This document shows, piece after piece, positions 1 through 27,641 of a stretch of DNA of 32,000 bases (its first letter is position 1; each line of letters opens with the position of its first letter). A program made the position numbers and the translations under genes. The DNA is from Mucisphaera calidilacus (lineage in GTDB: Bacteria; Planctomycetota; Phycisphaerae; Phycisphaerales; Phycisphaeraceae). The notes beneath the pieces were generated by a model. It worked only from the letters and a program-made list of their open reading frames with translations. It was not told where the DNA came from and searched no databases. The stretch covers positions 1,590,001-1,622,000 of the forward strand of contig NZ_CP036280.1 of NCBI RefSeq assembly GCF_007748075.1, read 5' to 3'.

Positions 1-3000
1 GGTAACGACGGGTTGGTCGCCGGCCTTGATCCATGAGGTCTGGAAGACGGTTTCGCCGAGGTTCCCGAAGAGGTCGGTGATGCCGTCGCCGTCGAGCGAG
101 AGGACGTAGGTGCCGTCGTCTGCGGTGAGGTTGGTGAGTCCCTCGATGCGGTAGCGTGTGGTGGTGAGCCGTGTGAGTGTGGTGGAGCTGAGGTCGATGT
201 CGTTGTTGTTGCGTGTGAGGTTGAGATCGTCGAGGTCGAGGGTGCCTTCGGCGAGTGGCTCGGAGACCGAGAAGGTGACGCTGTTGACCGGGCTGATGCG
301 GTGATCGGGTGTGACGGTATCGAAGGTGACTACGGGTCCGTCGCCATCGATCGGCTCGTAGATGAGGGTGTAGGAGGTGCCGGTGTCTTCGGGGTCGCCC
401 GTGGCTTCGGGTCGTGAGTCGAAGACGTGGATGATGTCTTCGTAGATGGGGAGCTGGTTGACGCCCGGGAAGGTTCGGTCCGTCTGCCAGAAGTTGTTGT
501 CGAGCAGGGAGGATCCGTCCTGTCGCTGGACGTCGATGAGTCGGTAGCGTCCTCGGCCGGGGTCGTCGAAGCGGAAGTAGCCGTGGCCGTCGAAGGATTC
601 GACGGTGACGGTGGTGGTGAGGTCGTTGAGGGTGACGTCGGCACCGATGTTGGTGACGACGAGGTCGCTGACGGGCTCGATGGAGCCGTCGGACTGGTGG
701 ACCTCGTCGGGTATGAACTGCGGGTCTTCGGTGGCGTTGACGAGGAAGTCGGGCAGGTCGTCGGAGCCTTCGAGGTCGACCTGGACGGTGCGGATGGTTT
801 CGTGGATGCGGACGTCCTTGACCTCGCCGAGTCGCTCGTCGCCGAGGGCGTTGACGTTTCGGAAGGAGGCGGAGAAGTCGACGAAGTGTCCCTGGATGGT
901 GGATTCGAGGAACCAGAGGACGGTGACGATCTCGCCGGGCTCGATGTCGCCGAACTCGAGGTTGAAGGCGGGTGTGATGTTCTGGTTGTTGATCTGGCTG
1001 GCGAGGAGTGTGAAGTCGATCAGCAGGCCCTGTGCGTTGTCGATGATGCGCGGCTGGGCGGAGCTGAGCGTGACCTGGTTGGCGGTGCCGACGCCCTCGT
1101 TGCGGATGTAGACGCCGAGGTTGTAGGGCACGCTGGGTTCGATTTCCTGGGTGAACGGGTCGTCGGAGTAGACGTCGCGTTGGTGGTAGTAGTCGATGAA
1201 GAGCTGTGCTCGTGGCTCGACGGTGATGGTGACGGGAGTGAAGTCGCTGGTGACGAGTTGTCCGTTGTCGACGTAGCTGAGGGTTCCGCCCACGGAGTAG
1301 CCGGTGAGGCCCTCGGGGGCTGCCTCGTCGAGGGGCACGATGATCCAGGTGGAGGATCCTTCGGCGTTGGGTCCGATGAACCCGGTGCCGTCGACGGCGC
1401 TGATGCCGTCGAGGTCGGGTGCGGAGATGGCGAAGAGGTCGTTGGCGATGTTGCCCTGCGCGTCGAGGATCTTGATGTCGACGTCGATGTCGGAGAGCGG
1501 GTTGTCGGTGTCGTTGAAGAGGTCGAGTGTGGCGTCGAAGGCCTGGAGAGTGGTGGTCAGGTCCTGGCTGAGTTGCAGGGTGACGTTGGCCGAGACGAAC
1601 TCGGGCAGCTTGACGACGGGCTGTGGCGCGGGTGCGCGGAAGACGGGGATGACGGGTCCTGTGCCGCCGCCGCCGAAGCCGCCTCCGCCGCCAAAGCCGC
1701 CACCACCACCTCCTCCGCCGCCGCCGCCGGAGCGTGGGATGACGCTCGGGGGCAGGAAGCAGTTGCCGTCGACGTTGGTGATGTAGATCGGCGTGGTCTT
1801 GTTGACGGTGATGAGGCTGCCGGGAGCGCCGGTCTGGTAGGACCAGTTGACGCCTGCGCTAATATCACAGGCGATGAAGATGCCCGGGTCTTCGAGCACG
1901 GCGGTGCGGGTGACGATCACGGGGATGGTGACGTCGCTGGAGCCGGGCAGGGTGCCGAGGGTGTCGGTGAGGGGTGTGAACTCGTAGAAGGGGTGGTCTT
2001 CGAAGAAGAGGGAGACGTTGTTGGTCTGGACGAGTCCGACGTTGCGGATGGTCATGTCGACCTGGAAGCTGTCGCCGATGTTGACGAGGGGCGCGAGGTC
2101 GATGAGCGGGGGCTCGACGACGATGGAGGGCACCGGGACGGAGGTGTTGAAGACGGTCTCGATGGTGATCTCGGTGGTGTTGGTGATCTCGATCTCGGTG
2201 ACGGTGAACTCGTAGCGGACGGTTTCGCGTGAGATGAAGACTTCATCGTCGACGAGGTCGCCCGCGGGGATGTAGATGAGTGTGCTGATATCGGTGTGGT
2301 TGTCGGAGCGGATGTCGAGGTTGTAGAAGCCGACGGGCAGACCGTCGAAGGTGACGACGCCGTTCTCGTCGGTGGTGTCGGTTCCGACGCGGACGCCGCT
2401 GCTGTCGATGATGCGTACCTGGACTCCTTCGGGTTTGGGACTTCCTGCGACGGCGTAGGTGAACTCGTCGACGATGGTGAGTCGGAGGTCGCCGACGGCG
2501 TCGGTGGTCACGAGGAAGTTGAAGTCGAGGAGTGCGTAGTCGGAGCCGTCACCGATGGCGACCTGCCCGGCGTAGGGGCCGAGAGCGGTGTCGGCGTCGG
2601 GCTGGATCTGGAAGGTGAGTGTTTCGGAGGCGCCGGGCAGGAGTGTGCCGAGGTCGCCCGTGACGAGCGTGAGCCAGTTGGGTCCTGGGATGATGATGTC
2701 GAGGTCGGCGCTCTCGGCGCCGCCGACGTTGGTGACGGTGACGCTGAAGAGCTGCTGGTCGCCGAGGAGCACGGACTGCTGGATGCTGTTGTCGCTGAGT
2801 GCGAAGCGGGCGACGGCGGGCGAGACGGTGACTTGTGCCTCGACCTGCTGCGTGACGCCCTCGGTGGTCGTTATCTCGATGACGACGGTGCCGTTGAGCA
2901 CGCTGGCGTCGATCGCTTCGACGTCGAAGGTGAGTGTGGTGGTCGCGAGGCCATTGAGGTGCGGGTCTGCGAAGTTGAGGTTGGTGATGCTGAGGTTGGC

Positions 3001-6000
3001 GGGGCTTTCGACGACGGTCGCGTTGAGGTCCACCAGTGCGATGGTGCTGAGGTTGCGGAGCGTCACGGATCCGGTGACGGTCTGGAACTCGGTGACCGCG
3101 AGGTCCTGGGTGGTGGGCTGCGCGAGCATGCCGATGACGGTGAAGCTGTCCTGGACGGGAGCGGTCAGTTCGCCCGGGTGCGCGGCGCCGATGGTGTATT
3201 CGCCGCCCTCGTTGGCGAGGGGCTGGAAGGTGAGTGAGAAGTCGCCGTTTTCGTCGGCGAAAGCGGTGAGGAGGCGTGTGGTGCCGCGGACGTTGAGGTG
3301 GATGTTGACCTGTTCGTTGGCGGCGGGCTGGCCGTCGCGTCGTGTGGCGGTGCCGAACATCTCGATGGGTGTTCCGGCGGTGGCCTGGGTGATGCCGGTC
3401 TGCACGGTCGCGCTGTAGGCGCTGTGCACGGTGAAGGGCGTCGGTGTGATGGTGGTGTTGTTGGTTTCGACGGCTTCGTCGACTTCGCTGGTGGTGTCGG
3501 TCTTGACGTAGATGTAGTAGGGGCCGGCGATGTCGGGTGCCTGGACGACGGTGAGCGTGCGTGTGAAGGATTCGCCGACTTCGAGCACGCCGTTGAATTC
3601 GAAGCGGTCGCCTGTGTCGTTGATGTCGGCGAGTCCGAGTTGGACGTCGTCGCTGTTGCCGATGACGCCGTCGGTGGAGAGCCAGATCTGCTGCTGGAGC
3701 GGGTTGTTGCCGTTGTCGGTGTCGGTGTCGGAGGGTCCGAAGCCGACGTTCTCGATGGTGAAGCGGACCTGGTACGGCTCGTCGGTGTCGATGTCGACGC
3801 CTTGGACGGGCAGGACCTGGAGGTTGGTGACGATGAGGTCGGGCAGGTTGGTGTCGGTGACGGTGATCTGATCGGATCCGGCGTTGTAGCCGAGTGCCGA
3901 GGCGGTGATGGTTGCCGTCTGGTTGCCGTCCTGCTGCGCGTCGGCGAGCGACGAGACGGGGACGGTGATGGATGAGGTGCCTTCGGGGATCAGGACGGTG
4001 GGCTGGAGGGTTGCTTCGGTGGTGTCACTCGAAGCGAGCGTGATGAGCAGTCCGCCGACGGGCGCGGGTGCGTTGAGGGTGATGGTGGCCTGTGCGGCGT
4101 CGGTGATGCCCTCGCCGACGAGGTCTGTGTCGAGCGTGAGTGTGATGGTTGGACCGTCGTCGTCGGTGACGTTGACGTCGGCTGTGACGGCGTTGTCGTC
4201 GATCGGCAGGCCTGCACCGGTTGTCGGTTTGGCGGTGATGGTGACGATCTGGGTGCCGTCGTCGAGTGCGTCGTCAACGGCGAAGAGGTTGAAGGTTGCG
4301 CTGGTCGCGCCGGCGGGGATGATGACCGAGGGCTGGACGAACAGTTCGGTGGCGTCGTTGCCGCTGAGCGCAACGGTCAGTGCGTTGGTCGTGTCGCCTG
4401 AGCGCGTGACCTGGACGGCGTTGCTGATGAGGCCGTCGGACTCGCTGAAGGTCGGTTCGAGCAGGGAGAGGGTGAGGGTGGGTCGGTCGTCGTCGATGAC
4501 CTCGATGCTCTCGATGTCGAGGTTGTGGCCGACGGCGGACGCGGAGATCTCGACGAACTCGTCGAACTCGACGAGCGTGTTCTGGATGGCGGTGAGTGTG
4601 ATGGTGACGCTGGGCTCGCCGGCGGGGATGGTCGCCGAGCTGATGCCGCTGAGCTGACCGATGACCGACTGCTCGAGGAAGAGCTCGACGGGCTGATCGG
4701 TCACGACGTCGCGGGCGATGACCATGTCGATGGTGTTGCCCTCGACGACGCTGGAACCGATGAAGTCGATGGAGAGATTGGGTCGGTCGACGTCGAGGAC
4801 GGTGAACTCGGCGGTGCCGCTGACGAAGCCGGTGGCGTCGGCTGTGATGGTGACGATCTGGTCGCCGTCGACGATGCCGTCCTCGAGGGTGTCGATGGTG
4901 AAGGTGCCGACGGTGGCGCCGGCGGGGATGGTGATGGTGGCGGGGACGGCGAGTTCATCGTTGAGGTCAACGGAGAGGTTGACGGTGATGGGCGAGGCGG
5001 TCGGGCCGCTTCGTGTGACGAATCCCTGGACGGTGTTGGGCCGGTCCTCGTTGGCCTGGTCCTGCGCGAAGGAGACCTGGAGTTCCGAGGTGAGGTCGAG
5101 GAGGCTGGCGCCGGCTGCTGTGTTGTCGGTCTCGTCGGCCTCGAAGACGGTGTTGAGTGCGTCGATCTCGACGAGGACGTAGACGAGTCCGCCGAGGCCC
5201 ATGCTGCCTGGCAGTTCGACGGTGGCGGAGTAGGACTGTGTTCCGCCGTTGGTCTGCCCCTCGAAGAGGTTGGAGAAGGCGCCGATCTGGACGGCGTCGC
5301 TTCCGCTGGGGCCGCTGGCGAGAAGCAGACGCGTGACGATGGAGACGTCGTCGGGGATCAATGTGCTGAGGACGTCCCAGTTGACGGCGAGGTCGTCGCC
5401 GGGGGCAGCGGCTGCGGGCGTGAAGGTGACGTTGTCGGGTGTGAGGTTGGGCAGTTCGATGTCGTAGGTGGTGGTGTAGACGTCGTCGTCGGTCTCGCCG
5501 TTGAGCGTGTCGCCGTCGATGTTGAGTGCGTGTCCGAGCGCGTTGCGGACGTCGCTGGCGATGGTGAGTGTGTAGGTGCCGACCTGCGGCGCTTCGGTGA
5601 AGCGTGCGGCGAAGGTGGTGTTGTCCGAGGAGGTGAGTGCGTCGATGGTGAGGGTGGAGCCGTCGGGTGCGATGAGGGTGATGTCATCGACGGAGAACGT
5701 GTCGGGGTCCATGGGCTCGCTGAAGGCGACGTCAAAGCCGTTTTCGACGGGCGTGATGGAGAGGACGCTGGGGCCTGCGGGGGTGGTGGCGTGCAGCGTC
5801 GTGCCGGTGGTGTTGTCGGTTTCGTCGGACTCGGCGAGTTGGCCGGCCGCGTCGGTGGTGACAAAGATCGTGAAGGTGTCGGTGCCGGCGGGGATGGTGT
5901 CGATGACGGGGAGGGTTACGGTGCGGCTTGCCGAGTAGCTGTCGTTGGCGTTCACTCCGCCGAGGTGGCTGACCGAGGCGAGGAGGACGTCGTCGGCGTC

Positions 6001-9000: not shown

Positions 9001-12000
9001 GCTGTAGGGAATCAGGACGTTGCCGGCGTTGTCGGCGGCGGCGGAGTTGATGGCCAGCGTGTAGGAACCCGCGGTCAGGAGGGCGTCGAAGACGACTTCA
9101 TATTGATTGGAGCCGAGGTCGTTGATAGCGGTGATGTTGGCCGGTCCGAGCGGTCCGGTGAGGCTGATCTCATTGATCTGGATCGGCTGTGCGAGGGGCT
9201 CGTCGACGGTGAACGTGAGTGAGGTTGAGCCCTGAATCAGCTGGTCGGCGGACGTTTCGGCCACGGAGGGCGTGGTGAGATCAAGACTGAAGGCGAAGGC
9301 CTGCCCCTGACCTTCTTCTGTGACGCGGACGTTGTCGACGGCGAAGCCGTAGTTACCGTTGGAAGCATCGCCTTGGAAGGCGAGCGTTGTGGTGGTGCTG
9401 TCGGCGACGAAGGTGGTTGTGTAGCCCTGCCAGTTCATGCTGGCGGTGCTGTTGGGCACGCTGTGGACGAGTGTCTGGCTGACGAGCGTAGTGTCGCCTG
9501 TCACGGTGAGGTAGCCGGTGGCGGAGCTGCCGTTTGGATTGCGCGAGTAATCGAACTCGACGCGGTAGGTCTGTCCCGGGACCGTGGCGAAGGCCTGGCT
9601 GAGGCGAGCGTTGTTGTCGACGTCGATGGACTGGTCGTTGCCGGCGGGGTCGACTTCGCCCGAGCTGCCGTGCCAGAGGGTGTTGATGTGATCGATGTTG
9701 CTGAATTCGACGTCCCACGCGAATCCGGCGGGGATGTTACTGAAGACGTAGGTGTTGAAGCTGCCGCTTGCGTCGGGGGTATCGAAGCCGGGGTTGGTAA
9801 TGAGGTTGCCGCTGCCGGTGATGTTCATGAAGTGACCGAGCGTGTCGGTGATGAACGGGCCGATCTGGACGGTGTAGTCGCCGTCTGTCGCGAGGGTGGT
9901 CGGCAGGTCGAGTGTGAAGAGGGTGTTGGTGGCGTCGGGTGTGATGGTCAGGTTGGTGGTGTTGAGCTCAGAACCGTCGGGCAGGGTGATGAGGACGTCA
10001 GAACCGGTGAAGGTGTTGGTGGCGATCGGCTTGCTGAAGGTGACGAGGAAGGTGTCGATCTGGGTGTTGAGCAGGCCCTGGGGGGTGAAGTCGGTGATGA
10101 CCGGCGGGGTGTAGACCTCGATGGGGCTGGAGGCTGTGTTGTTGGTTTCGTCTTCCTCGACGACGGTGTTGTTGTGGTCGGCGACGAAGATGAGGTTGTA
10201 GAAGCCGTCGGGCTGCACAAGGTTGGCGACGGTGCCGGTGACGGTTGTGGACTGACCGATAGAGAGGGCGCTCAGCGTGGCGGTGTCCAGGAGGGTGTCC
10301 CCGGCATCGAACAGGTCGTCGGTCGAGAGATAGAGGGCGCCGGTGGTTGCGGGGCTGTCCTGGGTGCCATCGTTGGTGACGGTGAATGACCATTCGAGGT
10401 CGTCGCCGTTGCGGACTTCGGCTGCTGCCACGGGGGCGCTGGCGACGAGGTCGGGCAGCGCGATGGTGGAGAAGCTCCACGGATCGCTGGTGAAGCTCTG
10501 GCCGCCGACCTGTGCGGTGACGGACCAGAAGTAGTCGGTGTCGAAGGCGAGTATGCCGGGGTCGAAACTGAGTGCGGCCTGGTTGTTGGCCACCTGGGTG
10601 AGGCTGTCGGGATCGGTGCCGAAGAAGACGTCGAAGACGACGTTGCCGGCGGAGTTTTCGAGGTCCCATGTGAGGATCTGGTTGACGGGCACGTCGGTGG
10701 CGTCGTCGGCCGGGGTGGGGTCAACGGGTGTGGATGGGTTGACCGCGAGGTCGCTGGGCGTGCTGCCTTGCGGGACGATGCGGACTTCGTTGCCGAGGGT
10801 GAGGTTGAGGTCGTCGGTGAAGTCGGTGGTCTCGCCGCTGGAGGCGAACCAGTTCGTGACGTTGCCGAAGTCGACGGAGGCGATGATGATGGTCCACGCG
10901 TCGCCGCCGATGCCTGAGACCATGACTCCGTCGGTGTTGACGCCGTAGCTGAAGGTCCCGACGAAGGAATCGGAGCCGGCGGGTGTTTCGACGGCTTCGC
11001 CTGCGTCGTCCGAGACGGCGACGAAGGGGTCGGTGGCGGAGTCGACGACGCGGAAGGCGAAGTCGGCCTGGTTGGAGGGCGCGTTGTTGTCGAGTCCGAA
11101 GATGAATCCGAAGCTCAGGTCGCCTGTCGTGGTGTCCTCGTGGATCCAGATATTGGAGTTGGTCGGTCCGAGGTTGACGCCGACCGGGTGTCCGGAGGCG
11201 CTGTAGAAGTCGTAGTGATCTGCGCCGTCGGCGGGTGTCTTGATGGCGTGGATCTGGCCGACGGGTGTGGTGGTGGAGGTGTTCCAGTCGTAGACGTCGA
11301 GGATGACGGGTGTGACGAGGGTGATGGCCTGTGCCGTGGTGTTGTTGTCGCCGTTGAGCTCGGTCAGGCCGCCGGTGAGGGGCGTGCCGGGCGCGGAGCC
11401 GTCGTCGTTGGTGGAGACGATGAGGTAGTAGGTGCCGTCGAGGACGTCGGGGATGGTGAGGTCGAAGGTGTAGGTGCCGGTGCCGTAGGTGCCGGTGAAG
11501 GTGTCGAGGATGGTGTCGCCGGCGTCGACGGTGTTGTCGGTCGAGAGGTAGATGGTGTCGGAGAAGCTTTCTACGGCGGGTCCTGATCCGAGGTTGTTGA
11601 GCGAGTAGGTGAGGCTGATGGTGTCGCCTGAGGCTGCGGCGGCGGGTGCGTTGTCGATGACGGGTTGGAGGTCGGCGACCGGATCAATCGTCAGGTCGAA
11701 GACGATCTGGTCGTCGGACGAGCTTCCGGTGTCGTTGGCGTAGAGGGTGATGGTGTGGGTGCCGATGGAGAGGCCGGAGGTGACGAAGGTGTCGGAGGTT
11801 CCGAACTGGCCGTCGATGCTGGAGGTCCAGGTGAAGTCGACGGTTCCGTCGTTGTTCTGTGCGGTCGCGGTGAAGGTGACGTCCTGGCCGTCGAGGTAGG
11901 CGGCGTCGGTCGGGCTGACGAGTTCGATGCTAAAGCCGATGGAGCCGGAGAGGGTTGAGGAGATGGCGGGGTCGTTGTTTCCGCCAGAGTGCAGGGCGAC

Positions 12001-13443
12001 GGGGTAGAGGCGCACGCCGAGGCCTGGCTGGAAGCCGTTGGGCGGCTGGCTGGTGGAGGTGTGGTCGGAGACAGTGGGGATGAGGTTGGGCGTGGACATC
12101 AGCGGGTTGCTGGTGTCGGTGGGGATGGTGGTCCCGCCGAAGTTGCCGGTGAAGGGCCCGACGCCGATGCGGTCGTTGACCTCGTTGGCGCCGAAGTTGG
12201 CGAAGACGTTGTGGTCGGTGCCGACGAAGATGCCGCCCTGGGCGGCGGCGAAGTTCTCGTAGATGTTCTCGGTGTAGAGCGGGCCTTCGGGTGCGCCGAA
12301 GGACCAGAAGGAGGAGAGGATCCGGCCGTCCATGACGAGTTCGAGGTCCTGGCCGTCGTTCCATTTGTCGAGGAACCATTCTCCGATGGCGTCGTGGTCG
12401 GCGTTGTAGCGGGTACTGCTTGAGCTGAGGTCGTAGTACCAGATCTGGTCGTAGAAGCTGTCGGTGTGGTCGCCGTCGGCGTTGGGGTCGGCTGCTGTGA
12501 TGGCGGCTGCGACGAGGCCGGCGTTGCCGGAGCGGAGTTCAATCTCATCGACGACGACGCCCATGCCGCGCAGGGTGTCGCGCATCACGCGTGAGCTGAC
12601 GTCGTAGCTGCCGTTGTAGTAATCGACGAGGAGGACGCGGTCGGGGTCTTCGGTGTTGTAGGTGACGGAGAAGTCGTCGATGGTGAAGTAGGTGCCGTCG
12701 GCGGCGCCGCCGGTGGATCCGGCGAGGGTGTCGAACTCGACGCTGTAGATCGCTTCGCCGCCGGTGTCGGCGGTGGAGATCGTGAAGGTCTGCTGGGTTC
12801 CGGGCGCGGTCTGGCCGATGACGTTGCCGTAGGCGTCGAAGGCGAAGAGGGTCTTGAGGGTGGTGTCGTCGTCGGCGTCGAAGAGGCTGACCTCGGAGAC
12901 GCCACGGTCGAAGCTGGCGACGATGCCGGAGGAGTGGGGCTGGATGTTGCCGGGGAGTGGTTCGTGCAGTGAGCCGAGGACGAAATCGGTTGTGGATCCG
13001 ACCTTGCTGTTGCCGTGGTTGAGGTTGGTGATGTGAACGCCTGTGGCGGAGGTCACGGGCAGTCCGTTGCTATCGTTACCCGGTGCGGGCCCGATGGAGC
13101 CGTCGTCGTTGAAGCTGACGGTGAATCCGCTCTCGCCGGTGAACTTGAGGACGCCCTCGGTGTCGCCGTCGACGTCGGTTGCGGACTCTCCGCCGGGGTT
13201 GAAGTCGAGGACGAGTGTTGCGGTGGTGCCGTCTTGTTCGGAGAGGTCTTCGATTGGTGTGCCGCTCAGGAGCACGCGTGGTTCGAGTGGCTCCAGGCGT
13301 GCGGGTCGTCTTGTGGCGGTCGGGCTGATGCGTCCGGCGCACGCGGGGATTGTGAGGGTGGCATTCGCGTGCCTTACTCGACCAAGGATGCAAAGGTACT
13401 GGTCGCGCAGCCATTTCACGGCGTGTGTGGCGAATGACATCAT
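1..13443 (-). CDS. Giant secreted multi-domain cell-surface / adhesin-like protein; 5' end complete, 3' end beyond window (>=4481 codons)
   Basis: Start is ATGATG at 13443/13440, preceded by GAGGAAGGG (13450-13458) and an in-frame upstream TGA (13471-13473). I split the plus strand into triplets from position 1. In roughly 100 of the ~224 sequence lines checked explicitly this way there is no in-frame tta/cta/tca; I also read the whole reverse complement once as a continuous translation. Every minus-strand ORF the track lists in 1-13474 ends at a coordinate of 1 or 2 mod 3, none at 0 mod 3. That fits one open frame running off the edge. The translation begins MMSFATHAVKWLRDQYLCILGRVRHANATLTIPACAGRISPTATRRPARLEPLEPRVLLSG and resolves into recognisable repeated extracellular modules. 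Confidence 0.9.
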   Translation of the reverse strand, partial: MMSFATHAVKWLRDQYLCILGRVRHANATLTIPACAGRISPTATRRPARLEPLEPRVLLSGTPIEDLSEQDGTTATLVLDFNPGGESATDVDGDTEGVLKFTGESGFTVSFNDDGSIGPAPGNDSNGLPVTSATGVHITNLNHGNSKVGSTTDFVLGSLHEPLPGNIQPHSSGIVASFDRGVSEVSLFDADDDTTLKTLFAFDAYGNVIGQTAPGTQQTFTISTADTGGEAIYSVEFDTLAGSTGGAADGTYFTIDDFSVTYNTEDPDRVLLVDYYNGSYDVSSRVMRDTLRGMGVVVDEIELRSGNAGLVAAAITAADPNADGDHTDSFYDQIWYYDLSSSSTRYNADHDAIGEWFLDKWNDGQDLELVMDGRILSSFWSFGAPEGPLYTENIYENFAAAQGGIFVGTDHNVFANFGANEVNDRIGVGPFTGNFGGTTIPTDTSNPLMSTPNLIPTVSDHTSTSQPPNGFQPGLGVRLYPVALHSGGNNDPAISSTLSGSIGFSIELVSPTDAAYLDGQDVTFTATAQNNDGTVDFTWTSSIDGQFGTSDTFVTSGLSIGTHTITLYANDTGSSSDDQIVFDLTIDPVADLQPVIDNAPAAAASGDTISLTYSLNNLGSGPAVESFSDTIYLSTDNTVDAGDTILDTFTGTYGTGTYTFDLTIPDVLDGTYYLIVSTNDDGSAPGTPLTGGLTELNGDNNTTAQAITLVTPVILDVYDWNTSTTTPVGQIHAIKTPADGADHYDFYSASGHPVGVNLGPTNSNIWIHEDTTTGDLSFGFIFGLDNNAPSNQADFAFRVVDSATDPFVAVSDDAGEAVETPAGSDSFVGTFSYGVNTDGVMVSGIGGDAWTIIIASVDFGNVTNWFASSGETTDFTDDLNLTLGNEVRIVPQGSTPSDLAVNPSTPVDPTPADDATDVPVNQILTWDLENSAGNVVFDVFFGTDPDSLTQVANNQAALSFDPGILAFDTDYFWSVTAQVGGQSFTSDPWSFSTIALPDLVASAPVAAAEVRNGDDLEWSFTVTNDGTQDSPATTGALYLSTDDLFDAGDTLLDTATLSALSIGQSTTVTGTVANLVQPDGFYNLIFVADHNNTVVEEDETNNTASSPIEVYTPPVITDFTPQGLLNTQIDTFLVTFSKPIATNTFTGSDVLITLPDGSELNTTNLTITPDATNTLFTLDLPTTLATDGDYTVQIGPFITDTLGHFMNITGSGNLITNPGFDTPDASGSFNTYVFSNIPAGFAWDVEFSNIDHINTLWHGSSGEVDPAGNDQSIDVDNNARLSQAFATVPGQTYRVEFDYSRNPNGSSATGYLTVTGDTTLVSQTLVHSVPNSTASMNWQGYTTTFVADSTTTTLAFQGDASNGNYGFAVDNVRVTEEGQGQAFAFSLDLTTPSVAETSADQLIQGSTSLTFTVDEPLAQPIQINEISLTGPLGPANITAINDLGSNQYEVVFDALLTAGSYTLAINSAAADNAGNVLIPYSETVSVVDATAPFVTDFQPETFLSSDVSSFSVTFSEPIQVTTVTADDFIVTLPDDTIMPGSNIESIVPSENNTVFTLNLINPLTDEGSYSVEIGPNITDLAGNFMEGFTAFTAYDNDFENGADQGYANGITGSWNTTRVFNDADTTQFLGNFGNEEIVLTLNNLPAHDEITIEFDLLLLDSWDGNVAPGPDYFGFLVDDRTTPEWEHTFDSFGNPQTYPFAADRKGVNVVGSSWNDTFYDKIQQTFVHTGDTLELRFRGRGLQSLGDESWGIDDLTVTVNGTPDNDAAAPTTPASGGDINSDGAVDLLDLSILAGHFGASATQTTADINSDGAVDLLDLSILAGDFGKATILPTSATVAGFNAEQQLASGAYLANFTIDRTGPSVEDVTIVNGSQIIVDYADRAGADTGVGVDPVTATDPANYTLIGSAGDGLFDGSTGDNGNTTIDLAAILDGSILFDTDTQTATINLATQLADDIYQLTVSGTATVEDLLGNPLGSLDAGPGTDFTSNNIAVNNVPGTVFIDLQDASDTGASQSDNITNVTNLTYDVTVNEAGTIVLDYNGDGHINNLDESRVVFGPGTYVFSAPYGADGQYNPTANFTPLTGPVISDNISVFVDRTGPSLLAGTPNEQAPLTTRTLTFDEPIDPDQFTTVDIDFIGPGGAALPDVTAITQTDLDGTTYQVDFAYVVAPGTYRFDLDPGTIRDLAGNTNPALLQDVFALAADATGPQVISHTPAGPISGSLSQVTIDFDENVLNNTFTADDVLVTRPDGSTLDAADVTVTPIDPVNGYTNTFSITFPEQTDSGTYSVLVGPDITDLSGNKMDAPYDASVFNDLESPVVTAVAFNGTPNQTLTSIDIAFSEALLASGIEASDFSLAAPDGSDIAIGSASYNGIDTVSLTFNTQSAPGAYTLSVSGSITDVFGNLLDGNLDGIGGDDYTTAFILEQGNLVVDTVTVAPGAANAALFGAEVNVAWTVSNTGSVDILGNAADHVIFSINDILGDADDVLLASVSHLGGVNANDSYSASRTVTLPVIDTIPAGTDTFTIFVTTDAAGQLAESDETDNTTGTTLHATTPAGPSVLSITPVENGFDVAFSEPMDPDTFSVDDITLIAPDGSTLTIDALTSSDNTTFAARFTEAPQVGTYTLTIASDVRNALGHALNIDGDTLNGETDDDVYTTTYDIELPNLTPDNVTFTPAAAAPGDDLAVNWDVLSTLIPDDVSIVTRLLLASGPSGSDAVQIGAFSNLFEGQTNGGTQSYSATVELPGSMGLGGLVYVLVEIDALNTVFEADETDNTAAGASLLDLTSELQVSFAQDQANEDRPNTVQGFVTRSGPTASPITVNLSVDLNDELAVPATITIPAGATVGTFTIDTLEDGIVDGDQIVTITADATGFVSGTAEFTVLDVDRPNLSIDFIGSSVVEGNTIDMVIARDVVTDQPVELFLEQSVIGQLSGISSATIPAGEPSVTITLTAIQNTLVEFDEFVEISASAVGHNLDIESIEVIDDDRPTLTLSLLEPTFSESDGLISNAVQVTRSGDTTNALTVALSGNDATELFVQPSVIIPAGATSATFNLFAVDDALDDGTQIVTITAKPTTGAGLPIDDNAVTADVNVTDDDGPTITLTLDTDLVGEGITDAAQATITLNAPAPVGGLLITLASSDTTEATLQPTVLIPEGTSSITVPVSSLADAQQDGNQTATITASALGYNAGSDQITVTDTNLPDLIVTNLQVLPVQGVDIDTDEPYQVRFTIENVGFGPSDTDTDNGNNPLQQQIWLSTDGVIGNSDDVQLGLADINDTGDRFEFNGVLEVGESFTRTLTVVQAPDIAGPYYIYVKTDTTSEVDEAVETNNTTITPTPFTVHSAYSATVQTGITQATAGTPIEMFGTATRRDGQPAANEQVNIHLNVRGTTRLLTAFADENGDFSLTFQPLANEGGEYTIGAAHPGELTAPVQDSFTVIGMLAQPTTQDLAVTEFQTVTGSVTLRNLSTIALVDLNATVVESPANLSITNLNFADPHLNGLATTTLTFDVEAIDASVLNGTVVIEITTTEGVTQQVEAQVTVSPAVARFALSDNSIQQSVLLGDQQLFSVTVTNVGGAESADLDIIIPGPNWLTLVTGDLGTLLPGASETLTFQIQPDADTALGPYAGQVAIGDGSDYALLDFNFLVTTDAVGDLRLTIVDEFTYAVAGSPKPEGVQVRIIDSSGVRVGTDTTDENGVVTFDGLPVGFYNLDIRSDNHTDISTLIYIPAGDLVDDEVFISRETVRYEFTVTEIEITNTTEITIETVFNTSVPVPSIVVEPPLIDLAPLVNIGDSFQVDMTIRNVGLVQTNNVSLFFEDHPFYEFTPLTDTLGTLPGSSDVTIPVIVTRTAVLEDPGIFIACDISAGVNWSYQTGAPGSLITVNKTTPIYITNVDGNCFLPPSVIPRSGGGGGGGGGGGFGGGGGFGGGGTGPVIPVFRAPAPQPVVKLPEFVSANVTLQLSQDLTTTLQAFDATLDLFNDTDNPLSDIDVDIKILDAQGNIANDLFAISAPDLDGISAVDGTGFIGPNAEGSSTWIIVPLDEAAPEGLTGYSVGGTLSYVDNGQLVTSDFTPVTITVEPRAQLFIDYYHQRDVYSDDPFTQEIEPSVPYNLGVYIRNEGVGTANQVTLSSAQPRIIDNAQGLLIDFTLLASQINNQNITPAFNLEFGDIEPGEIVTVLWFLESTIQGHFVDFSASFRNVNALGDERLGEVKDVRIHETIRTVQVDLEGSDDLPDFLVNATEDPQFIPDEVHQSDGSIEPVSDLVVTNIGADVTLNDLTTTVTVESFDGHGYFRFDDPGRGRYRLIDVQRQDGSSLLDNNFWQTDRTFPGVNQLPIYEDIIHVFDSRPEATGDPEDTGTSYTLIYEPIDGDGPVVTFDTVTPDHRISPVNSVTFSVSEPLAEGTLDLDDLNLTRNNNDIDLSSTTLTRLTTTRYRIEGLTNLTADDGTYVLSLDGDGITDLFGNLGETVFQTSWIKAGDQPVVT
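1663..1728 (-). repeat. Poly-glycine tract G11-F-G5-F-G4 inside the giant ORF
   Basis: Plus-strand in-frame triplets are gcc x4, gaa, gcc gcc tcc gcc gcc, aaa, gcc gcc acc acc acc tcc tcc gcc x4. The reverse complement reads RS-GGGGGGGGGGG-F-GGGGG-F-GGGG-TGP. The track ORF 1304..1786 reads the same DNA off-frame on the plus strand as poly-Pro. Confidence 0.85.
2290..2495 (-). other. Carboxypeptidase-regulatory-like / Cna-B-like beta-sandwich module
   Basis: GDLRLTIVDEFTYAVAGSPKPEGVQVRIIDSSGVRVGTDTTDENGVVTFDGLPVGFYNLDIRSDNH. Confidence 0.5.
3445..3850 (-). other. CARDB-like module 5
   Basis: LPDLIVTNLQVLPVQGVDIDTDEPYQVRFTIENVGFGPSDTDTDNGNNPLQQQIWLSTDGVIGNSDDVQLG...VVQAPDIAGPYYIYVKTDTTSEVDEAVETNNT. 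Confidence 0.6.
3850..5090 (-). repeat. Array of four ~100-aa Calx-beta-like repeats (approximate boundaries 4780, 4478, 4150)
   Basis: Each unit has the form [variable]...TRSG...L-T-V-x-L...IPAG-x-x-x-x-x-F/I-x-x...D-x-x-x-DG-x-Q-x-V-T-I-T-A...V-x-D-D-D-R/G-P. Examples: VTRSGPTASPITVNLSV..ATITIPAGATVGTFTIDTLEDGIVDGDQIVTITAD..FTVLDVDRP and VQVTRSGDTTNALTVALSG..SVIIPAGATSATFNLFAVDDALDDGTQIVTITAK..VNVTDDDGP. Confidence 0.6.
5105..5455 (-). other. CARDB-like module 4
   Basis: LPNLTPDNVTFTPAAAAPGDDLAVNWDVLS...SYSATVELPGSMGLGGLVYVLVEIDALNTVFEADETDNT. Confidence 0.5.
5800..6165 (-). other. CARDB-like module 3
   Basis: NLVVDTVTVAPGAANAALFGAEVNVAWTVSNTGSVDILGNAADHVIFSINDILGDADDVLLASVSHLGGVNANDSYSASRTVTLPVIDTIPAGTDTFTIFVTTDAAGQLAESDETDNT. 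Confidence 0.6.
6215..7155 (-). other. Three consecutive Ig-like modules (SbsA/Big_5-like)
   Basis: RTGPSLLAGTPNEQAPLTTRTLTFDEPIDPDQFTTVDIDFIGPGG...DLDPGTIRDLAGNTN; ATGPQVISHTPAGPISGSLSQVTIDFDENVLNNTFTADDVLVTRPDGS...VLVGPDITDLSGNKMD; ESPVVTAVAFNGTPNQTLTSIDIAFSEALLASGIEASDFSLAAPDGS...LSVSGSITDVFGNLLDGNLDG. Confidence 0.5.
7973..8113 (-). repeat. Perfect 54-bp direct repeat (7973-8026 and 8060-8113, period 87 bp) encoding a dockerin-like pair of Ca-binding loops
   Basis: Both copies read ccggcgaggatggagaggtcgaggaggtcgaccgcgccgtcgctgttgatgtcg on the plus strand. Translation: GGDINSDGAVDLLDLSILAGHFGASATQTTADINSDGAVDLLDLSILAGDFGKA. The same tandem is visible in the off-frame track ORF 7563..8447. 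Confidence 0.8.
8161..8655 (-). other. Uncharacterised beta-sandwich module ending in ESWGIDDLTV
   Basis: FENGADQGYANGITGSWNTTRVFNDADTTQFLGNFGNEEIVLTLNNLPAHDEITIEFDLLLLDSWDGNVAPGPDYFGFLVDD...LELRFRGRGLQSLGDESWGIDDLTVTVNG. Confidence 0.35.
8690..9290 (-). other. Two consecutive Ig-like modules (SbsA/Big_5-like, each ending in a D-x-AGN motif)
   Basis: TTPSVAETSADQLIQGSTSLTFTVDEPLAQPIQINEISLTGP...YTLAINSAAADNAGNVL, then TAPFVTDFQPETFLSSDVSSFSVTFSEPIQVTTVTADDFIVTLPDD...YSVEIGPNITDLAGNFME. Similar modules lie at about 9825-10110, 7520-7870, 6870-7155, 6535-6835, 6215-6510, 5500-5785 and 45-340. Confidence 0.5.
9315..9805 (-). other. DUF642-like / galactose-binding-like jelly-roll module (putative carbohydrate-binding)
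   Basis: NLITNPGFDTPDASGSFNTYVFSNIPAGFAWDVEFSNIDHINTLWHGSSGEVDPAGNDQSIDVDNNARLSQAFATVPGQTYRVEFDYSRNPNGSSATGYLTVTGD...MNWQGYTTTFVADSTTTTLAFQGDASNGNYGFAVDNVRVTE. Confidence 0.45.
10120..10465 (-). other. CARDB-like module 2
   Basis: LPDLVASAPVAAAEVRNGDDLEWSFTVTNDGTQDSPATTGALYLSTDDLFDAGDTLLDTATLSALSIGQSTTVTGTVANLVQPDGFYNLIFVADHNNTVVEEDETNNT. Confidence 0.65.
10463..10745 (-). other. FN3/Ig-like module (P-x-D-x-ATDV ... LTW ... FDVFFGTDP signature)
   Basis: NPSTPVDPTPADDATDVPVNQILTWDLENSAGNVVFDVFFGTDPDSLTQVANNQAALSFDPGILAFDTDYFWSVTAQVGGQSFTSDPWSFST. Confidence 0.45.
11320..11690 (-). other. CARDB-like module 1 of giant protein
   Basis: DPVADLQPVIDNAPAAAASGDTISLTYSLNNLGSGPAVESFSDTIYLSTDNTVDAGDTILDTF...DGTYYLIVSTNDDG...ELNGDNNT. 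This follows the DL-x-V...G-x-x-x-x-V-x-N-x-G...YLS-x-D...D-x-x-L...YY-L...E-x-N-x-x-NN pattern. Confidence 0.6.
13261..13296 (-). other. N-terminal LEPLEPRVLLSG motif (LExLExRxLLS-type leader seen on many large planctomycete secreted proteins)
   Basis: Reverse complement reads CTG GAG CCA CTC GAA CCA CGC GTG CTC CTG AGC GGC. It follows an Arg-rich stretch (TATRRPAR) and no classical hydrophobic signal-peptide core precedes it. Confidence 0.5.
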
Positions 13444-13793
13444 TGTCCACCCTTCCTCTTTGTTGACGCATCAAAAACCATGAGCCATCCCCTCCTCCAC
13501 ATGAAGATTGCTCCCTCTCTCCATGCGTGAAACATTGTCTTCCCGAACTATAAATTAGCGTTGATGTGTGCTTTTTGGAAGAGGCAGCACACGATCCTAA
13601 CGAAAGGAATGGTGGAGCGATCGGGCCGCAACCCGTGTATTTTGCGTTATTCTCTGTATTTCAATGACTTACAGCCAGACTGGCCCGGGTTCCGCTGGGC
13701 GTTGCCTGTGCCTGTCTGAGGTGTGCAGAATCGATCCGGTCACCGATAGCTCACGGTTGTCGGGATTGCGGGTCGTTTTCGGGAGTGCGTTGT

Positions 13794-15782: not shown

Positions 15783-15847
15783 GGTCGCTTCTCGCTGTCC
15801 GGGTGAGGGCGTGTCGGGTGATCCGCGTTGATGATCCGGGGGGTGAG

Positions 15848-17335: not shown

Positions 17336-17400
17336 GGCTTGTGATCGCGTGTGTTCATGGCGAGAGGCTTGTGGAAGCCGTGATGGGCTTCGTGAGACGG

Positions 17401-19371: not shown

Positions 19372-19377
19372 CAGTGA

Positions 19378-22263: not shown

Positions 22264-22303
22264 GGGCGTTGACTCCGAGAGAGCGTGTGAATCGATTCGA
22301 GGG

Positions 22304-23074: not shown

Positions 23075-23103
23075 GACGTTCTCCGGTGGTTCTGTCTGGT
23101 TAC

Positions 23104-24402: not shown

Positions 24403-24875
24403 GATTCGGTCTCGCGGGTGACTGCCTGAGGCCGTCGCCAGATCAGGGAGATTGTCCGCAGCAGCATGAGGAGCGCCCCGACCGGGATCGCGAGGTAGAC
24501 CCAGGATCGTGGCAGTTCAAGGACGGCGGTGTCGACGTCGTGCCCGCTGATCGTGAGGCCGACGCCATACCAGATCAGGACGAGGCAGCAGATGGCGACC
24601 AGGGTGTGAGCGATGCCTCGGGCGGCCGATCCCAGCCTGTCGGGCAGCCAGTCCACGAAGACGGCGACGACGAAGTGCTCGTTGCGTTTGAGCGCGAGCG
24701 AGGCCCCGACAAAGACCAGCCAGGTGAAGAGGATGGTGGCGAGTTCCTCGGTCCAGGCGGGCGGATCGGTGAGGATATAGCGTCCGATCACCTGGATCAG
24801 GGTGATGACGCACATCACGGCCAGCAGAGCTGCTCCGGCGACTTCCTCGAGATGATCGGCGAGTTTACGGATCAA
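24399..24875 (-). CDS. dctQ: TRAP transporter small permease subunit (DctQ family)
   Basis: 158 aa with four predicted TM segments, lying between the DctP- and DctM-type genes. It overlaps the dctP 3' end by 11 nt. Confidence 0.8.
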   Translation of the reverse strand: MIRKLADHLEEVAGAALLAVMCVITLIQVIGRYILTDPPAWTEELATILFTWLVFVGASLALKRNEHFVVAVFVDWLPDRLGSAARGIAHTLVAICCLVLIWYGVGLTISGHDVDTAVLELPRSWVYLAIPVGALLMLLRTISLIWRRPQAVTRETES

Positions 24876-25896: not shown

Positions 25897-25952
25897 GGGT
25901 CATGCCTGCCTGTCTTGAGTTTTGATGCTGTTATCCGGCGTGCGTGATTCGT

Positions 25953-27630: not shown

Positions 27631-27641
27631 ATCTGAATTAC

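What the first reader, a model, noticed from the sequence alone, without database searches (positions are those of the whole stretch)
1..13443. A giant ORF of at least 4481 codons fills 42% of the window and is absent from the ORF track
The minus-strand frame that starts at ATG 13443 stays open to position 1.
- In roughly 100 of the ~224 sequence lines that I split into triplets there is no in-frame tta/cta/tca on the plus strand. I also read the whole reverse complement once as a continuous translation.
- The track lists no minus ORF in this frame anywhere in 13.4 kb. That is only possible if the frame is one ORF lacking a stop inside the window.
- The start has a good RBS (GAGGAAGGG-N6-ATG) and an in-frame TGA 27 nt upstream, so the N-terminus is defined.

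The translation is not low-complexity junk. It resolves into five CARDB-like modules, four Calx-beta-like repeats, about ten Ig-like modules, a dockerin-like pair, several jelly-roll modules and a Gly hinge. It is very rich in D/T/N/V/G and has almost no K/R/C/M. A gene caller or annotator relying on the supplied track would replace this gene with about 30 bogus ORFs.
Basis: seen in the sequence. Interest (0 to 1): 0.8.

Follow-up and report, generated by a model that had tools for sequence, protein, structure and literature searches.

The report
Giant planctomycete surface-protein gene, cut off
The 13.4-kb open frame is a real gene: the start of a giant, acidic surface protein built from many beta-sandwich domains, in the planctomycete Mucisphaera calidilacus, and most likely the 13,493-residue giant gene already noted when the species was described, so it is genuine but ordinary for this phylum.

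Summary
Confirmed. The minus-strand frame from ATG 13443 to position 1 has 4481 codons and no stop. Chance gives about 1e-39. Codon usage matches the neighbouring genes (GC3 0.89; RSCU r 0.98, against 0.30 and 0.38 for the other two frames). It is missing from the ORF track only because ORFs that run off the window are not listed.

Five neighbouring proteins match Mucisphaera calidilacus Pan265 (CP036280) exactly. Its description reports one giant gene, Pan265_03220 (13,493 aa). The window most likely holds the first third of it (about 85%, inferred, not shown).

- **Domains:** a LEPR-XLL planctomycete leader, five CARDB-like modules (two or three pass Pfam's cut-off), at least seven Big_5, Big_13, DUF642, a dockerin pair and CarboxypepD_reg.
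- **Calx-beta:** the four "Calx-beta-like" repeats have no Calx-beta sequence match. They are Ig-like sandwiches that resemble CALX CBD1 only in fold.
- **Added value:** residues about 2790-4362 are a collinear core shared with giant proteins of Verrucomicrobiota, Cyanobacteria and Planctomycetota. It ends in a 415-residue triple beta-sandwich module with no Pfam, NCBIfam or PDB match.

Most likely function is an extracellular adhesin or matrix fibre. This is a known kind of gene and of modest interest.

The parts
13450..13473 (-). Translation start context: in-frame TGA (13471-13473), RBS-like GAGGAAGGG (13450-13458), 6-nt spacer, then ATG at 13443
   Evidence: Read directly from the sequence. 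There is no other start codon between the TGA and the ATG.
1..13443 (-). Giant ORF, 4481 codons, open to the window edge (C-terminus missing)
   Evidence: No stops; P about 1e-39; GC3 0.887; RSCU r 0.98 with neighbours.
13252..13443 (-). N-terminal leader, aa 1-64, with the LEPR-XLL motif (aa 49-64, LEPLEPRVLLSG)
   Evidence: NCBIfam NF012209 20.6 bits (cut-off 17). Pfam Planc_extracel 17.7 bits (below 25.5). Planctomycete homologs L002 and L077 carry the same motif.
12664..13215 (-). Unannotated domain of about 185 aa (aa 77-260)
   Evidence: 44-53% identical to a unit repeated 2-5 times in tandem in 11 unnamed proteins; no Pfam hit.
11944..12648 (-). Orphan region aa 266-500 with no family match
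   Evidence: No Pfam hit at E <= 10. It was not among the matches to the N-terminal query.
11299..11919 (-). PKD/Big_2-like Ig module (aa 509-581) and CARDB-like copy 1 (aa 591-715)
   Evidence: PKD 19.8-20.6 and Big_2 20.5-20.7 bits, both sub-threshold. CARDB 20.6 bits. 31-41% identical to copy 2.
10129..10743 (-). Big_5-like module (aa 901-995) and CARDB copy 2 (aa 997-1105)
   Evidence: CARDB 59.3 bits, E 4.7e-16. Big_5 17 bits, weak.
8692..10110 (-). Big_5 (aa 1112-1204), DUF642/choice-of-anchor-C-like jelly roll (aa 1213-1374), Ig (aa 1382-1477), Big_5 (aa 1488-1584)
   Evidence: DUF642 56.2 bits against cut-off 27. TIGR04362 85.7 bits, below its cut-off of 120. Big_5 29 and 45 bits.
7978..8115 (-). 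Dockerin type I pair (aa 1777-1822): two DINSDGAVDLLDLSILAG segments
   Evidence: Pfam Dockerin_1 35.1 bits against cut-off 22.9. The duplicated Ca-binding-type segments are visible in the translation.
5089..7443 (-). Ig/CARDB array: Big_13 (aa 2001-2097), four Big_5 (aa 2098-2203, 2204-2310, 2326-2408, about 2550-2650), CARDB-like copies 3 (aa 2443-2546) and 4 (aa 2661-2785)
   Evidence: Big_13 40 bits; Big_5 60.5 bits over 3 stretches; CARDB 29.3/19.2 and 16-19 bits. Diverged internal repeats, 30-45% identical.
3847..5088 (-). Four repeats of about 100 aa (aa 2786-3199), 'Calx-beta-like'; start of the conserved core
   Evidence: Alignment A1. No Calx-beta Pfam hit; weak LapA domain at E 0.003. 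AF2 model pLDDT 85.5. Foldseek lists CALX CBD1/CBD12 at TM 0.66-0.67 among many Ig-like sandwiches.
1729..3843 (-). Core, middle part: CARDB copy 5 (aa 3201-3331), transthyretin-like (aa 3353-3430), NEW3-like (aa 3561-3625), CarboxypepD_reg (aa 3672-3728), domain with two Cys (aa 3741-3905; C3859, C3895)
   Evidence: CARDB 28.1 bits. CarboxypepD_reg 36.8 bits in a segment scan, 29.9 alone. NPCBM_assoc 22.4 bits. Collinear 30-33% identity to 57-68 of 80 homologous giant ORFs.
1663..1728 (-). Poly-Gly hinge (aa 3906-3927)
   Evidence: GCC x22 tandem repeat on the + strand. It sits where homologs have poly-Gly, a Cys-rich stretch and a helical 'RWNRT' insert, 153-500 aa in all.
358..1596 (-). Conserved 415-aa triple beta-sandwich module (aa 3950-4362), unannotated
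   Evidence: 33-46% identical to 46 proteins. 3,583 50%-identity clusters match the profile. AF2 pLDDT 90.8, pTM 0.85. No Pfam, NCBIfam or PDB sequence hit. Foldseek gives only generic tandem-Ig matches, TM <= 0.22.
1..357 (-). Further Ig-like module (aa 4363-4481), ending at the window edge with the frame still open
   Evidence: Big_12 16.8 bits, weak. Aligned with the equivalent post-module domain in homologs up to aa 4480.

Best explanation
This is the 5' part of a genuine protein-coding gene of the planctomycete Mucisphaera calidilacus Pan265 (class Phycisphaerae). It is most likely the first third of the single giant gene already reported for that genome (Pan265_03220, 13,493 aa). The product is a very acidic, Cys-poor extracellular protein. 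Its planctomycete-type N-terminal leader carries the LEPR-XLL motif. About 40 beta-sandwich modules follow within the window (CARDB-like, Big_5/Big_13 Ig-like, transthyretin-like). Among them sit putative glycan-binding jelly rolls (DUF642) and a Ca-binding dockerin pair. Residues about 2790-4362 form a collinear core shared with giant proteins of other phyla. Inferred mechanism: after export the module string forms a long, semi-rigid fibre. At about 4 nm per module that is roughly 0.15 um for the window part and about 0.5 um for 13,493 aa. The fibre would project from the cell and bind glycans or partner proteins, acting as an adhesin or scaffold of the dense extracellular matrix in which this strain grows. 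Shown: the reading frame, coding character, source organism, domain content and core conservation. Inferred: identity with Pan265_03220, the export route, the fibre geometry and the adhesin/matrix role.
For: Open frame and coding statistics. Source: the SDR, DctM, DctP, KduI and IclR neighbours are exact matches to M. calidilacus proteins QDU71446, 71447, 71449, 71450 and 71451 on a 3,486,541-bp contig. Window GC is 0.59-0.67 against 63.9% for the genome (PMC8882080). The species paper lists 'Giant genes (>15 kb): 1' and names Pan265_03220 (13,493 aa) as the only polypeptide above 5,000 aa. It also describes growth as a viscous colloid inside a dense extracellular matrix. The frame is still open after a completed Ig module at the window edge. 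In all 7 planctomycete homologs, 856-2074 aa follow the conserved module, which would put this protein above 5,000 aa. Extracellular character: LEPR-XLL leader above its NCBIfam cut-off; CARDB, Big_5, Big_13, DUF642, Dockerin_1 and CarboxypepD_reg hits; 624 D+E against 107 K+R and only 4 Cys. Family context: giant genes are typical of Planctomycetota and mostly encode surface proteins (PMC5177795; PMC12673574). Dockerin_1 is enriched in planctomycete huge proteins (PMC11573180).
Against: Identity with Pan265_03220 is not shown. The source genome could not be read beyond the window, and no locus-tag-to-accession link was found. If it is the 13,493-aa protein, about 9,100 aa follow the conserved module, far more than in any of 73 complete homologs (maximum 2,309). 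There is no canonical hydrophobic signal peptide in aa 1-64, so the export route is unknown. No expression, localisation or binding data exist. No conserved partner genes such as a secretion system or cohesin were found next to homologs. The link to the matrix phenotype is circumstantial.
Confidence: 0.7

Rival explanations
1. It is a separate large gene of 4,481-5,000 aa that ends just beyond the window. The 13,493-aa gene Pan265_03220 lies elsewhere in the genome.
For: About half of the Verrucomicrobiota homologs end 380-635 aa after the module, which would fit a total below 5,000 aa. In every homolog the module lies in the C-terminal part, as it would here.
Against: The paper counts one gene above 15 kb and one protein above 5,000 aa. 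The 7 planctomycete homologs all have at least 856 aa after the module. A second protein of about 4,500-5,000 aa in a 3.49-Mb genome is a priori uncommon.
Confidence: 0.15
2. It is a cellulosome-like scaffold or carrier for polysaccharide degradation, not an adhesin. Its dockerin and glycan-binding modules would organise enzymes encoded by the adjacent uronate-utilisation cluster.
For: A dockerin pair, a DUF642 jelly roll and CARDB/NEW3-like modules. The gene lies directly downstream, on the same strand, of KduI, a KduD-like SDR, a TRAP transporter, IclR, DUF4861, two BNR_4 proteins and an SSF symporter.
Against: No cohesin and no catalytic domain in 4,481 aa. A 350-nt gap separates it from the symporter. 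Homologous giant genes have no conserved neighbours, so the adjacency is probably incidental. The role of planctomycete dockerins is unknown (PMC11573180).
Confidence: 0.12
3. It is a chance long ORF of a GC-rich genome, or a decayed or misassembled pseudogene, and makes no product.
For: High-GC DNA yields long spurious ORFs. Other frames of this same stretch hold ORFs of up to 601 aa.
Against: P(no stop) is about 1e-39. Frame-specific GC3 is 0.887 and RSCU r is 0.98. There are more than 20 significant Pfam domain matches in frame. There is collinear homology of over 1,500 aa to giant ORFs in other phyla, and a conserved module that folds with pLDDT 90.8.
Confidence: 0.01

Closest known systems
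Pan265_03220, the 13,493-aa giant gene of Mucisphaera calidilacus Pan265 (Kallscheuer et al. 2022, PMC8882080)
   Same: Same genome (exact neighbour proteins). It is the only protein above 5,000 aa reported there. The window ORF is already 4,481 aa and still open.
   Different: Identity is inferred, not read. The paper gives only the locus tag and length, with no domain analysis or function.
Planctomycetal giant genes / LEPR-XLL proteins (NCBIfam NF012209; giant genes of Fuerstiella marisgermanici, Rhodopirellula baltica; PMC5177795, Reva & Tummler 2008)
   Same: N-terminal LEPR-XLL motif, great length, Ig-like, CARDB and dockerin content, acidic composition, predicted surface location, unknown function.
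   Different: The source is a small-genome Phycisphaerae, a family in which such genes were otherwise not seen. The dockerin sits mid-protein here rather than near the C-terminus as in the R. baltica homolog L040.
Giant ORFs of Verrucomicrobiota, Cyanobacteria and Planctomycetota that carry the same core (loci L001-L080, e.g. R. baltica BR-MGV L040, Planctomycetota MAG L002, Calothrix PCC 7716 L003)
   Same: Collinear 30-33% identity over aa about 2800-3895 and 40-46% over aa 3950-4480. A poly-Gly stretch lies before the module.
   Different: No ortholog; the highest identity is 46%. Homologs have 153-500 aa between the two blocks (Cys-rich plus helical 'RWNRT' region), against 55 aa here. 75 of 76 have a Cys at the module start where this protein has Ser. 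Leaders and C-termini are phylum-specific.
RTX-type giant adhesins of Gram-negative bacteria (LapA, MpIBP, SiiE)
   Same: It probably works like them: a long string of Ig-like modules with ligand-binding modules, Ca-dependent rigidity and an acidic composition. There is a weak LapA-domain hit in the four repeats.
   Different: No RTX/HemolysinCabind repeats and no N-terminal retention module in the 4,481 aa seen. The C-terminal secretion signal cannot be tested. The leader is of a different kind.
Calx-beta domain (PF03160; CALX/NCX1 CBD1-CBD2)
   Same: The repeat-1 model superposes on CALX CBD1 (3e9t) and CBD12 (3rb7) with TM 0.66-0.67.
   Different: No sequence-profile match at all. Many unrelated Ig-like sandwiches score equally well: cystinosin, GH2 and GH42 linker domains, and pilus chaperones.

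Membership tests
LEPR-XLL domain proteins (NCBIfam NF012209) | Short N-terminal LEPRxLL-type motif scoring above the curated cut-off | tested here: met
   20.6 bits against cut-off 17, aa 49-64. Pfam Planc_extracel 17.7 bits, below its cut-off.
LEPR-XLL domain proteins (NCBIfam NF012209) | Found in very long proteins of Planctomycetota | tested here: met
   At least 4,481 aa. The source is Mucisphaera calidilacus. Planctomycete homologs L002 and L077 share the motif.
CARDB (PF07705) | Profile match above the 22.7-bit gathering score | tested here: met
   Copy 2 scores 59.3 bits and copy 5 28.1 bits. Copy 3 scores 29.3 in a segment but 19.2 alone. Copies 1 (20.6) and 4 (16-19) are below the cut-off.
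Calx-beta (PF03160) | Sequence-profile match to the Calx-beta model | tested here: not met
   No hit at E <= 0.1 in segments or E <= 10 on single repeats. The profile of the 4 repeats finds no Calx-beta chain in the PDB.
Calx-beta (PF03160) | Calx-beta-type beta-sandwich fold | tested here: inconclusive
   CALX CBD1/CBD12 and NCX1 CBD2 are among the top Foldseek hits (TM 0.57-0.67), but no better than unrelated Ig-like sandwiches. Ca-binding residues were not examined.
Dockerin type I (PF00404) | Profile match above cut-off, with two duplicated Ca-binding segments | tested here: met
   35.1 bits against 22.9. DINSDGAVDLLDLSILAG occurs twice, aa 1777-1822.
Cellulosome-type system | A cohesin partner and dockerin-borne enzymes | tested here: not met
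   No cohesin or catalytic domain in the ORF or the window.
DUF642 (PF04862) / choice-of-anchor C (TIGR04362) | Profile match above cut-off | tested here: met
   DUF642 56.2 bits against 27. The narrower TIGR04362 scores 85.7 bits, below its cut-off of 120, so subfamily membership is not met.
RTX giant adhesins (LapA/MpIBP type) | RTX nonapeptide repeats and a C-terminal T1SS signal | not testable with these tools
   None in the 4,481 aa seen. The C-terminus is outside the window and the source contig could not be fetched.
Pan265_03220 (published giant gene) | Same genome | tested here: met
   Five exact neighbour proteins named Mucisphaera calidilacus, on a contig of 3,486,541 bp (PMC8882080).
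Pan265_03220 (published giant gene) | Same CDS (length 13,493 aa, that locus tag) | not testable with these tools
   No access to CP036280 beyond the window. No paper links the locus tag to an accession.
Unnamed 'giant-protein core' family (loci L001-L080) | 415-aa triple beta-sandwich module | tested here: met
   E 1e-97 to 1e-111 in tblastn, 40-46% identity. Confident model.
Unnamed 'giant-protein core' family (loci L001-L080) | Cys at the module start, and a 150-500-aa Cys-rich/helical insert before it | tested here: not met
   Ser replaces the Cys found in 75 of 76 homologs. The spacing is 55 aa against 153-500.

The most novel reading that the evidence does not exclude
Residues about 2790-4362 form a collinear core: four Ig-like repeats, CARDB, transthyretin-like, NEW3-like and CarboxypepD_reg modules, a two-Cys domain, poly-Gly, then a 415-aa triple beta-sandwich module. 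This core may be an undescribed, ancient unit of giant extracellular proteins. It is shared by Verrucomicrobiota, Cyanobacteria, Planctomycetota, some Proteobacteria and even metazoan-type proteins (Dreissena, and P0182 with three copies). It would have a specific role, such as envelope anchoring or self-assembly. The Mucisphaera protein would be a natural minimal variant that lost the Cys-rich/helical insert and the conserved Cys.
Probability: 0.3. Interest if true: 0.55.

Novelty: new member of a known kind. Interest (0 to 1): 0.3.

Why it matters
For annotation, it shows that an ORF track which drops ORFs running off a window hides the largest gene of a genome and offers 52 spurious ORFs in its place. 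For biology, the gene is one more uncharacterised planctomycete giant surface protein. Its existence is already on record, so it changes little by itself. Two points deserve follow-up. First, it is the only giant gene in its family, and it sits in a strain with an unusual gel-like matrix. Pan265 is cultured, so the link could be tested if the strain can be manipulated genetically. Second, the gene contains a well-folded 415-aa module and a core of about 1,600 aa. The module is conserved across phyla in thousands of protein clusters, and neither it nor the core has a family model or solved structure. Defining them would improve annotation of many giant proteins.

Tried and rejected
- **Searches that gave nothing.** A homolog search with all 4,481 aa timed out. 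I tried to extend the ORF through genome contigs, metagenome contigs and exact-product look-ups of neighbours. The source contig is not retrievable. The homolog database returned no hit above 1,022 aa, so the protein did not find itself.
- **Conserved neighbours.** I clustered 873 flanking ORFs from the 80 homologous loci. No family occurs in more than 8 loci, so a dedicated secretion or partner operon is rejected.
- **The insert that homologs carry.** Profile A4 against PDB and Pfam gave only Gly-linker noise.
- **Viral structure library for the module.** Only generic hits.
- **Alpha-2-macroglobulin-like reading of the core.** Weak bMG3 and MG4 hits of 14-27 bits lie below their cut-offs. There is no thioester motif or helical TED here, so I dropped it.
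- **Recent tandem duplication as the origin of the length.** Rejected: internal repeats are only 27-50% identical, and DNA tandem repeats are limited to the poly-Gly GCC run.
- **Promoter and terminator scan of the 350-nt upstream gap.** Nothing found, and the consensus may not apply to this phylum.
- **Literature link.** No paper ties Pan265_03220 to QDU or WP accessions.
Full report
**Observation.** The reverse complement of window 1-13443, read from the ATG at 13443, translates to 4481 residues without a stop. It is by far the longest open stretch in any frame, 4490 codons against 710 for the next. No alternative start codon lies between the stop and the ATG. From the base composition of that strand about 90 stops are expected, so P(no stop) is about 1e-39. 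The other five frames of the same stretch hold 24-372 stops. The frame is coding and not merely open. GC at codon positions 1/2/3 is 0.594/0.452/0.887, like eight neighbouring genes. Synonymous codon usage correlates with those neighbours at r = 0.98, against 0.30 and 0.38 for the shifted frames. The ORF tool lists 52 ORFs of at least 60 aa across 1-13443 and none in this frame. Its documented rule is that ORFs running off the source are omitted, which explains the absence from the track. The stated composition holds.

**Source organism.** The TRAP permease encoded at 23104-24402 is 100% identical over its full length to a Mucisphaera calidilacus protein. Exact look-ups place five neighbours in that organism, on a contig of 3,486,541 bp: SDR QDU71446, DctM QDU71447, DctP QDU71449, KduI QDU71450 and IclR QDU71451. 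This is strain Pan265, genome CP036280, 3.49 Mb and 63.9% G+C (PMC8882080). The window has 59-67% G+C. Accession numbers rise with window coordinate, so the giant CDS should be about QDU71441; this is an inference. The source contig itself could not be fetched from any collection, so the C-terminus was not read.

**Relation to the literature.** The species description lists 'Giant genes (>15 kb): 1'. It states that Pan265 is the only strain of its family with a polypeptide above 5,000 aa, 'locus tag Pan265_03220, 13,493 aa'. The window ORF is therefore one of two things. It is either the first third of that gene, or a second gene that stops within 1.56 kb of the window edge. I put about 85% on the first. 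The frame is still open after a completed Ig-like module. All seven planctomycete homologs carry 856-2074 aa after the conserved module, whereas only 119 aa follow it inside the window. A second protein of 4,500-5,000 aa in a 3.49-Mb genome is a priori uncommon. Against this, about 9,100 aa after the module would exceed anything seen in 73 complete homologs, where the maximum is 2,309. No paper links the locus tag to an accession.

**Anatomy, in residues of the translation.**

- **Leader (aa 1-64).** It has no classical hydrophobic signal sequence. It carries LEPLEPRVLLSG at aa 49-64, which matches NCBIfam NF012209 (LEPR-XLL) at 20.6 bits against a cut-off of 17. Pfam Planc_extracel scores 17.7 bits, below its cut-off.
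- **aa 77-260.** An unannotated domain of about 185 aa. It recurs 2-5 times in tandem in 11 unnamed proteins at 44-53% identity.
- **aa 266-500.** An orphan region with no match.
- **aa 509-581.** A PKD/Big_2-like module, sub-threshold.
- **CARDB-like modules.** They lie at aa 591-715 (20.6 bits), 997-1105 (59.3), 2443-2546 (29.3 in a segment, 19.2 alone), 2661-2785 (16-19) and 3201-3331 (28.1). The cut-off is 22.7 bits.
- **Ig-like modules.** Big_5 lies at aa 1112-1204, 1488-1584, 2098-2203, 2204-2310, 2326-2408, about 2550-2650 and, weakly, 901-995. Big_13 lies at aa 2001-2097.
- **aa 1213-1374.** DUF642, 56 bits. The narrower choice-of-anchor C model scores below its cut-off.
- **aa 1777-1822.** A dockerin type I pair, 35 bits.
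- **aa 2786-3199.** Four repeats of about 100 aa.
- **aa 3353-3728.** Transthyretin-like, NEW3-like and CarboxypepD_reg modules.
- **aa 3741-3905.** A domain holding two of the protein's four Cys.
- **aa 3906-3927.** A poly-Gly run, seen as GCC x22 in the DNA.
- **aa 3950-4362.** A conserved module, described below.
- **aa 4363-4481.** One more Ig-like module.

Internal repeats are only 27-50% identical, so the gene is an old mosaic, not a recent amplification. There are 624 acidic against 107 basic residues.

**The 'Calx-beta-like' repeats.** No Calx-beta Pfam hit appears in segment scans at E <= 0.1 or on single repeats at E <= 10. The best match is a weak LapA-domain hit, E 0.003 and below its cut-off. 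A profile of the four repeats finds nothing significant in the PDB. An AlphaFold model of repeat 1, built from the four internal copies, has pLDDT 85.5. It is a seven- or eight-stranded sandwich. Foldseek lists CALX CBD12 and CBD1 (TM 0.66-0.67) and NCX1 CBD2 among the top 50. Cystinosin, glycosidase linker domains, pilus chaperones and complement MG domains score equally well. So the repeats are Calx-beta-like in fold only; family membership is not supported.

**The conserved core.** The last 600 residues found 46 proteins at 33-46% identity, all over aa about 3950-4362. They come from Microcystis, Rivularia, Verrucomicrobia, Bryobacteraceae, Gammaproteobacteria, CPR bacteria and the mussel Dreissena. 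None has a Pfam domain on that stretch.

- **No family or structure match.** There is no Pfam or NCBIfam match for the window copy or any of 19 aligned members. There is no PDB sequence match for the single sequence or for the profile.
- **Structure model.** The AlphaFold model from the 19-sequence alignment is confident (pLDDT 90.8, pTM 0.85) and all-beta, with about three sandwiches. Foldseek against the PDB returns only generic tandem-Ig proteins such as integrin legs and pilins, at TM <= 0.22. The viral library gave nothing specific.
- **Census.** The profile hits 3,583 clusters at 50% identity out of 1.84 billion, 2,297 of them at E <= 1e-30. Hits usually carry one copy per protein, and many are 2,000-7,600 aa long.
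- **Species genomes.** A scan gave at least 360 loci. The best 80 are mostly Verrucomicrobiota, then Cyanobacteria, Planctomycetota (including R. baltica BR-MGV and Rubripirellula) and Mangrovicoccus. Identity does not exceed 46%, so there is no ortholog.
- **Position in the ORF.** In every locus the module lies inside a very large ORF. In the 73 with a complete C-terminus, 337-2,309 aa follow it.
- **Extent of homology.** Homology reaches far upstream of the module. 57-68 of the 80 ORFs align collinearly to aa about 2800-3895 at 30-33% identity, in single alignments of over 1,000 aa. They then align to aa 3950-4480 at 40-43%.
- **A minimal variant.** Between the two blocks homologs have 153-500 aa (median about 320). 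This stretch holds a poly-Gly run, a Cys-rich part and a helical part with the motif ERAxLL...IDRWNRTxDY...DVPxGQSxDFI. 75 of 76 homologs have a Cys at the first strand of the module. The Mucisphaera protein has only 55 aa there, essentially the poly-Gly, and Ser in place of the Cys. That insert has no Pfam or PDB relative either.
- **Ends and neighbours.** Ends are phylum-specific. Planctomycete members start with LEPR-XLL-type leaders and Verrucomicrobiota with classical signal peptides. C-termini end in an '...FYRLR' beta domain (Verrucomicrobiota), '...NDFLVQS' (Cyanobacteria) or a dockerin plus acidic tail (Planctomycetota). No neighbouring gene family is conserved across loci.
- **Metazoan-type members.** The top census hit, P0182 (7,485 aa), matches the module profile in three stretches and its printed sequence repeats the RWNN-type insert before each. 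By eye it also shows EGF-like, CUB-like and transmembrane-like segments; I did not scan it. The Dreissena protein sits on a 75-Mb scaffold. The core is therefore not confined to bacteria.

**Context in the window.** Upstream, on the same strand, lies a uronate and polysaccharide utilisation cluster: an IclR regulator, KduI, TRAP DctPQM, a KduD-like SDR, a DUF4861 protein, two BNR_4 proteins and an SSF symporter. A 350-nt gap separates the symporter from the giant gene. The consensus scan found no promoter or terminator there.

**Most likely mechanism.**

- **Shown:** a real gene for a very large, acidic, Cys-poor chain of beta-sandwich modules, with a planctomycete-specific leader, putative glycan-binding modules and a Ca-binding dockerin.
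- **Inferred:** the protein is exported and forms an extended fibre. At about 4 nm per module, the 40 or so modules in the window span about 0.15 um, and 13,493 aa would span about 0.5 um, comparable to the 0.4-1.1 um cells. It would act as an adhesin or as a scaffold of the dense extracellular matrix. In that matrix Pan265 cells sit without touching one another.

Giant planctomycete genes are generally taken to encode surface proteins (PMC5177795; PMC12673574). Dockerin_1 is enriched in their huge proteins (PMC11573180). The conserved core, better conserved than the flanking modules, is the best candidate for a specific anchoring or assembly function, but nothing here tests that.

**Verdict.** The gene is a new, uncharacterised member of a known kind, and its existence is very probably already published, so interest is modest. 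The most novel reading that remains open is that the core and its 415-aa module form an undescribed, widely distributed unit of giant extracellular proteins.

Noticed in passing
window 358-1596 (aa 3950-4362); loci L001-L080: A well-folded 415-aa triple beta-sandwich module (pLDDT 90.8) with no Pfam, NCBIfam or PDB match. It is present in 3,583 50%-identity clusters across Verrucomicrobiota, Cyanobacteria, Planctomycetota, Proteobacteria and CPR bacteria, almost always inside giant ORFs.
   Followed up: yes
window 1597-1728 (aa 3906-3949), against L001-L080: Homologs carry 153-500 aa here: poly-Gly, a Cys-rich part and a helical 'IDRWNRT...DVPxGQSxDFI' part, plus a near-invariant Cys at the module start. 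The window protein keeps only the poly-Gly and has Ser instead of the Cys. Microcystis loci L004 and L009 look similarly short.
   Followed up: partly
P0182 (7,485 aa) and P0035 (Dreissena polymorpha LOC127857375): The module, together with the RWNN-type insert before it, also occurs in what look like metazoan proteins. P0182 matches the module profile three times and shows EGF-, CUB- and TM-like segments by eye (not scanned). P0035 lies on a 75-Mb scaffold and has no Pfam hit. This could be ancient sharing or horizontal transfer; it was not resolved.
   Followed up: partly
window 12664-13215 (aa 77-260): An unannotated N-terminal domain of about 185 aa. It is repeated 2-5 times in tandem in 11 unnamed proteins from large ENA/JGI contigs (44-53% identity), with the conserved motifs NYHSSGIVA.FSHGV and DGTYFT(I/L)D(N/D)F.
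   Followed up: partly
window 13794-27630, minus strand: A uronate/polysaccharide utilisation cluster lies directly upstream of the giant gene: IclR, KduI, TRAP DctP/Q/M, KduD-like SDR, a DUF4861 protein (1007 aa), a 656-aa protein with no Pfam hit, BNR_4 and an SSF symporter. A second BNR_4 gene lies on the + strand at 27690-29213.
   Followed up: partly
window 1-13000 against 14000-32000: GC skew on the + strand is +0.26 to +0.37 across the giant gene, against 0.0 to +0.25 elsewhere. It probably reflects the Thr/Asp/Gly/Ala-rich codon content of the gene rather than replication.
   Followed up: no
window 29253-31166: Two long ORFs overlap on opposite strands. 29253-30341 (+) is an Acyl_transf_3 acyltransferase (76 bits). 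29364-31166 (-, 600 aa) has no Pfam hit and is probably a GC-rich shadow ORF.
   Followed up: no
tools and collections: The source genome did not appear in genome contigs or in the encoding-contig index, although its proteins are in the protein collection. The word-indexed homolog search returned no hit longer than 1,022 aa, so giant proteins cannot find themselves there.
   Followed up: no
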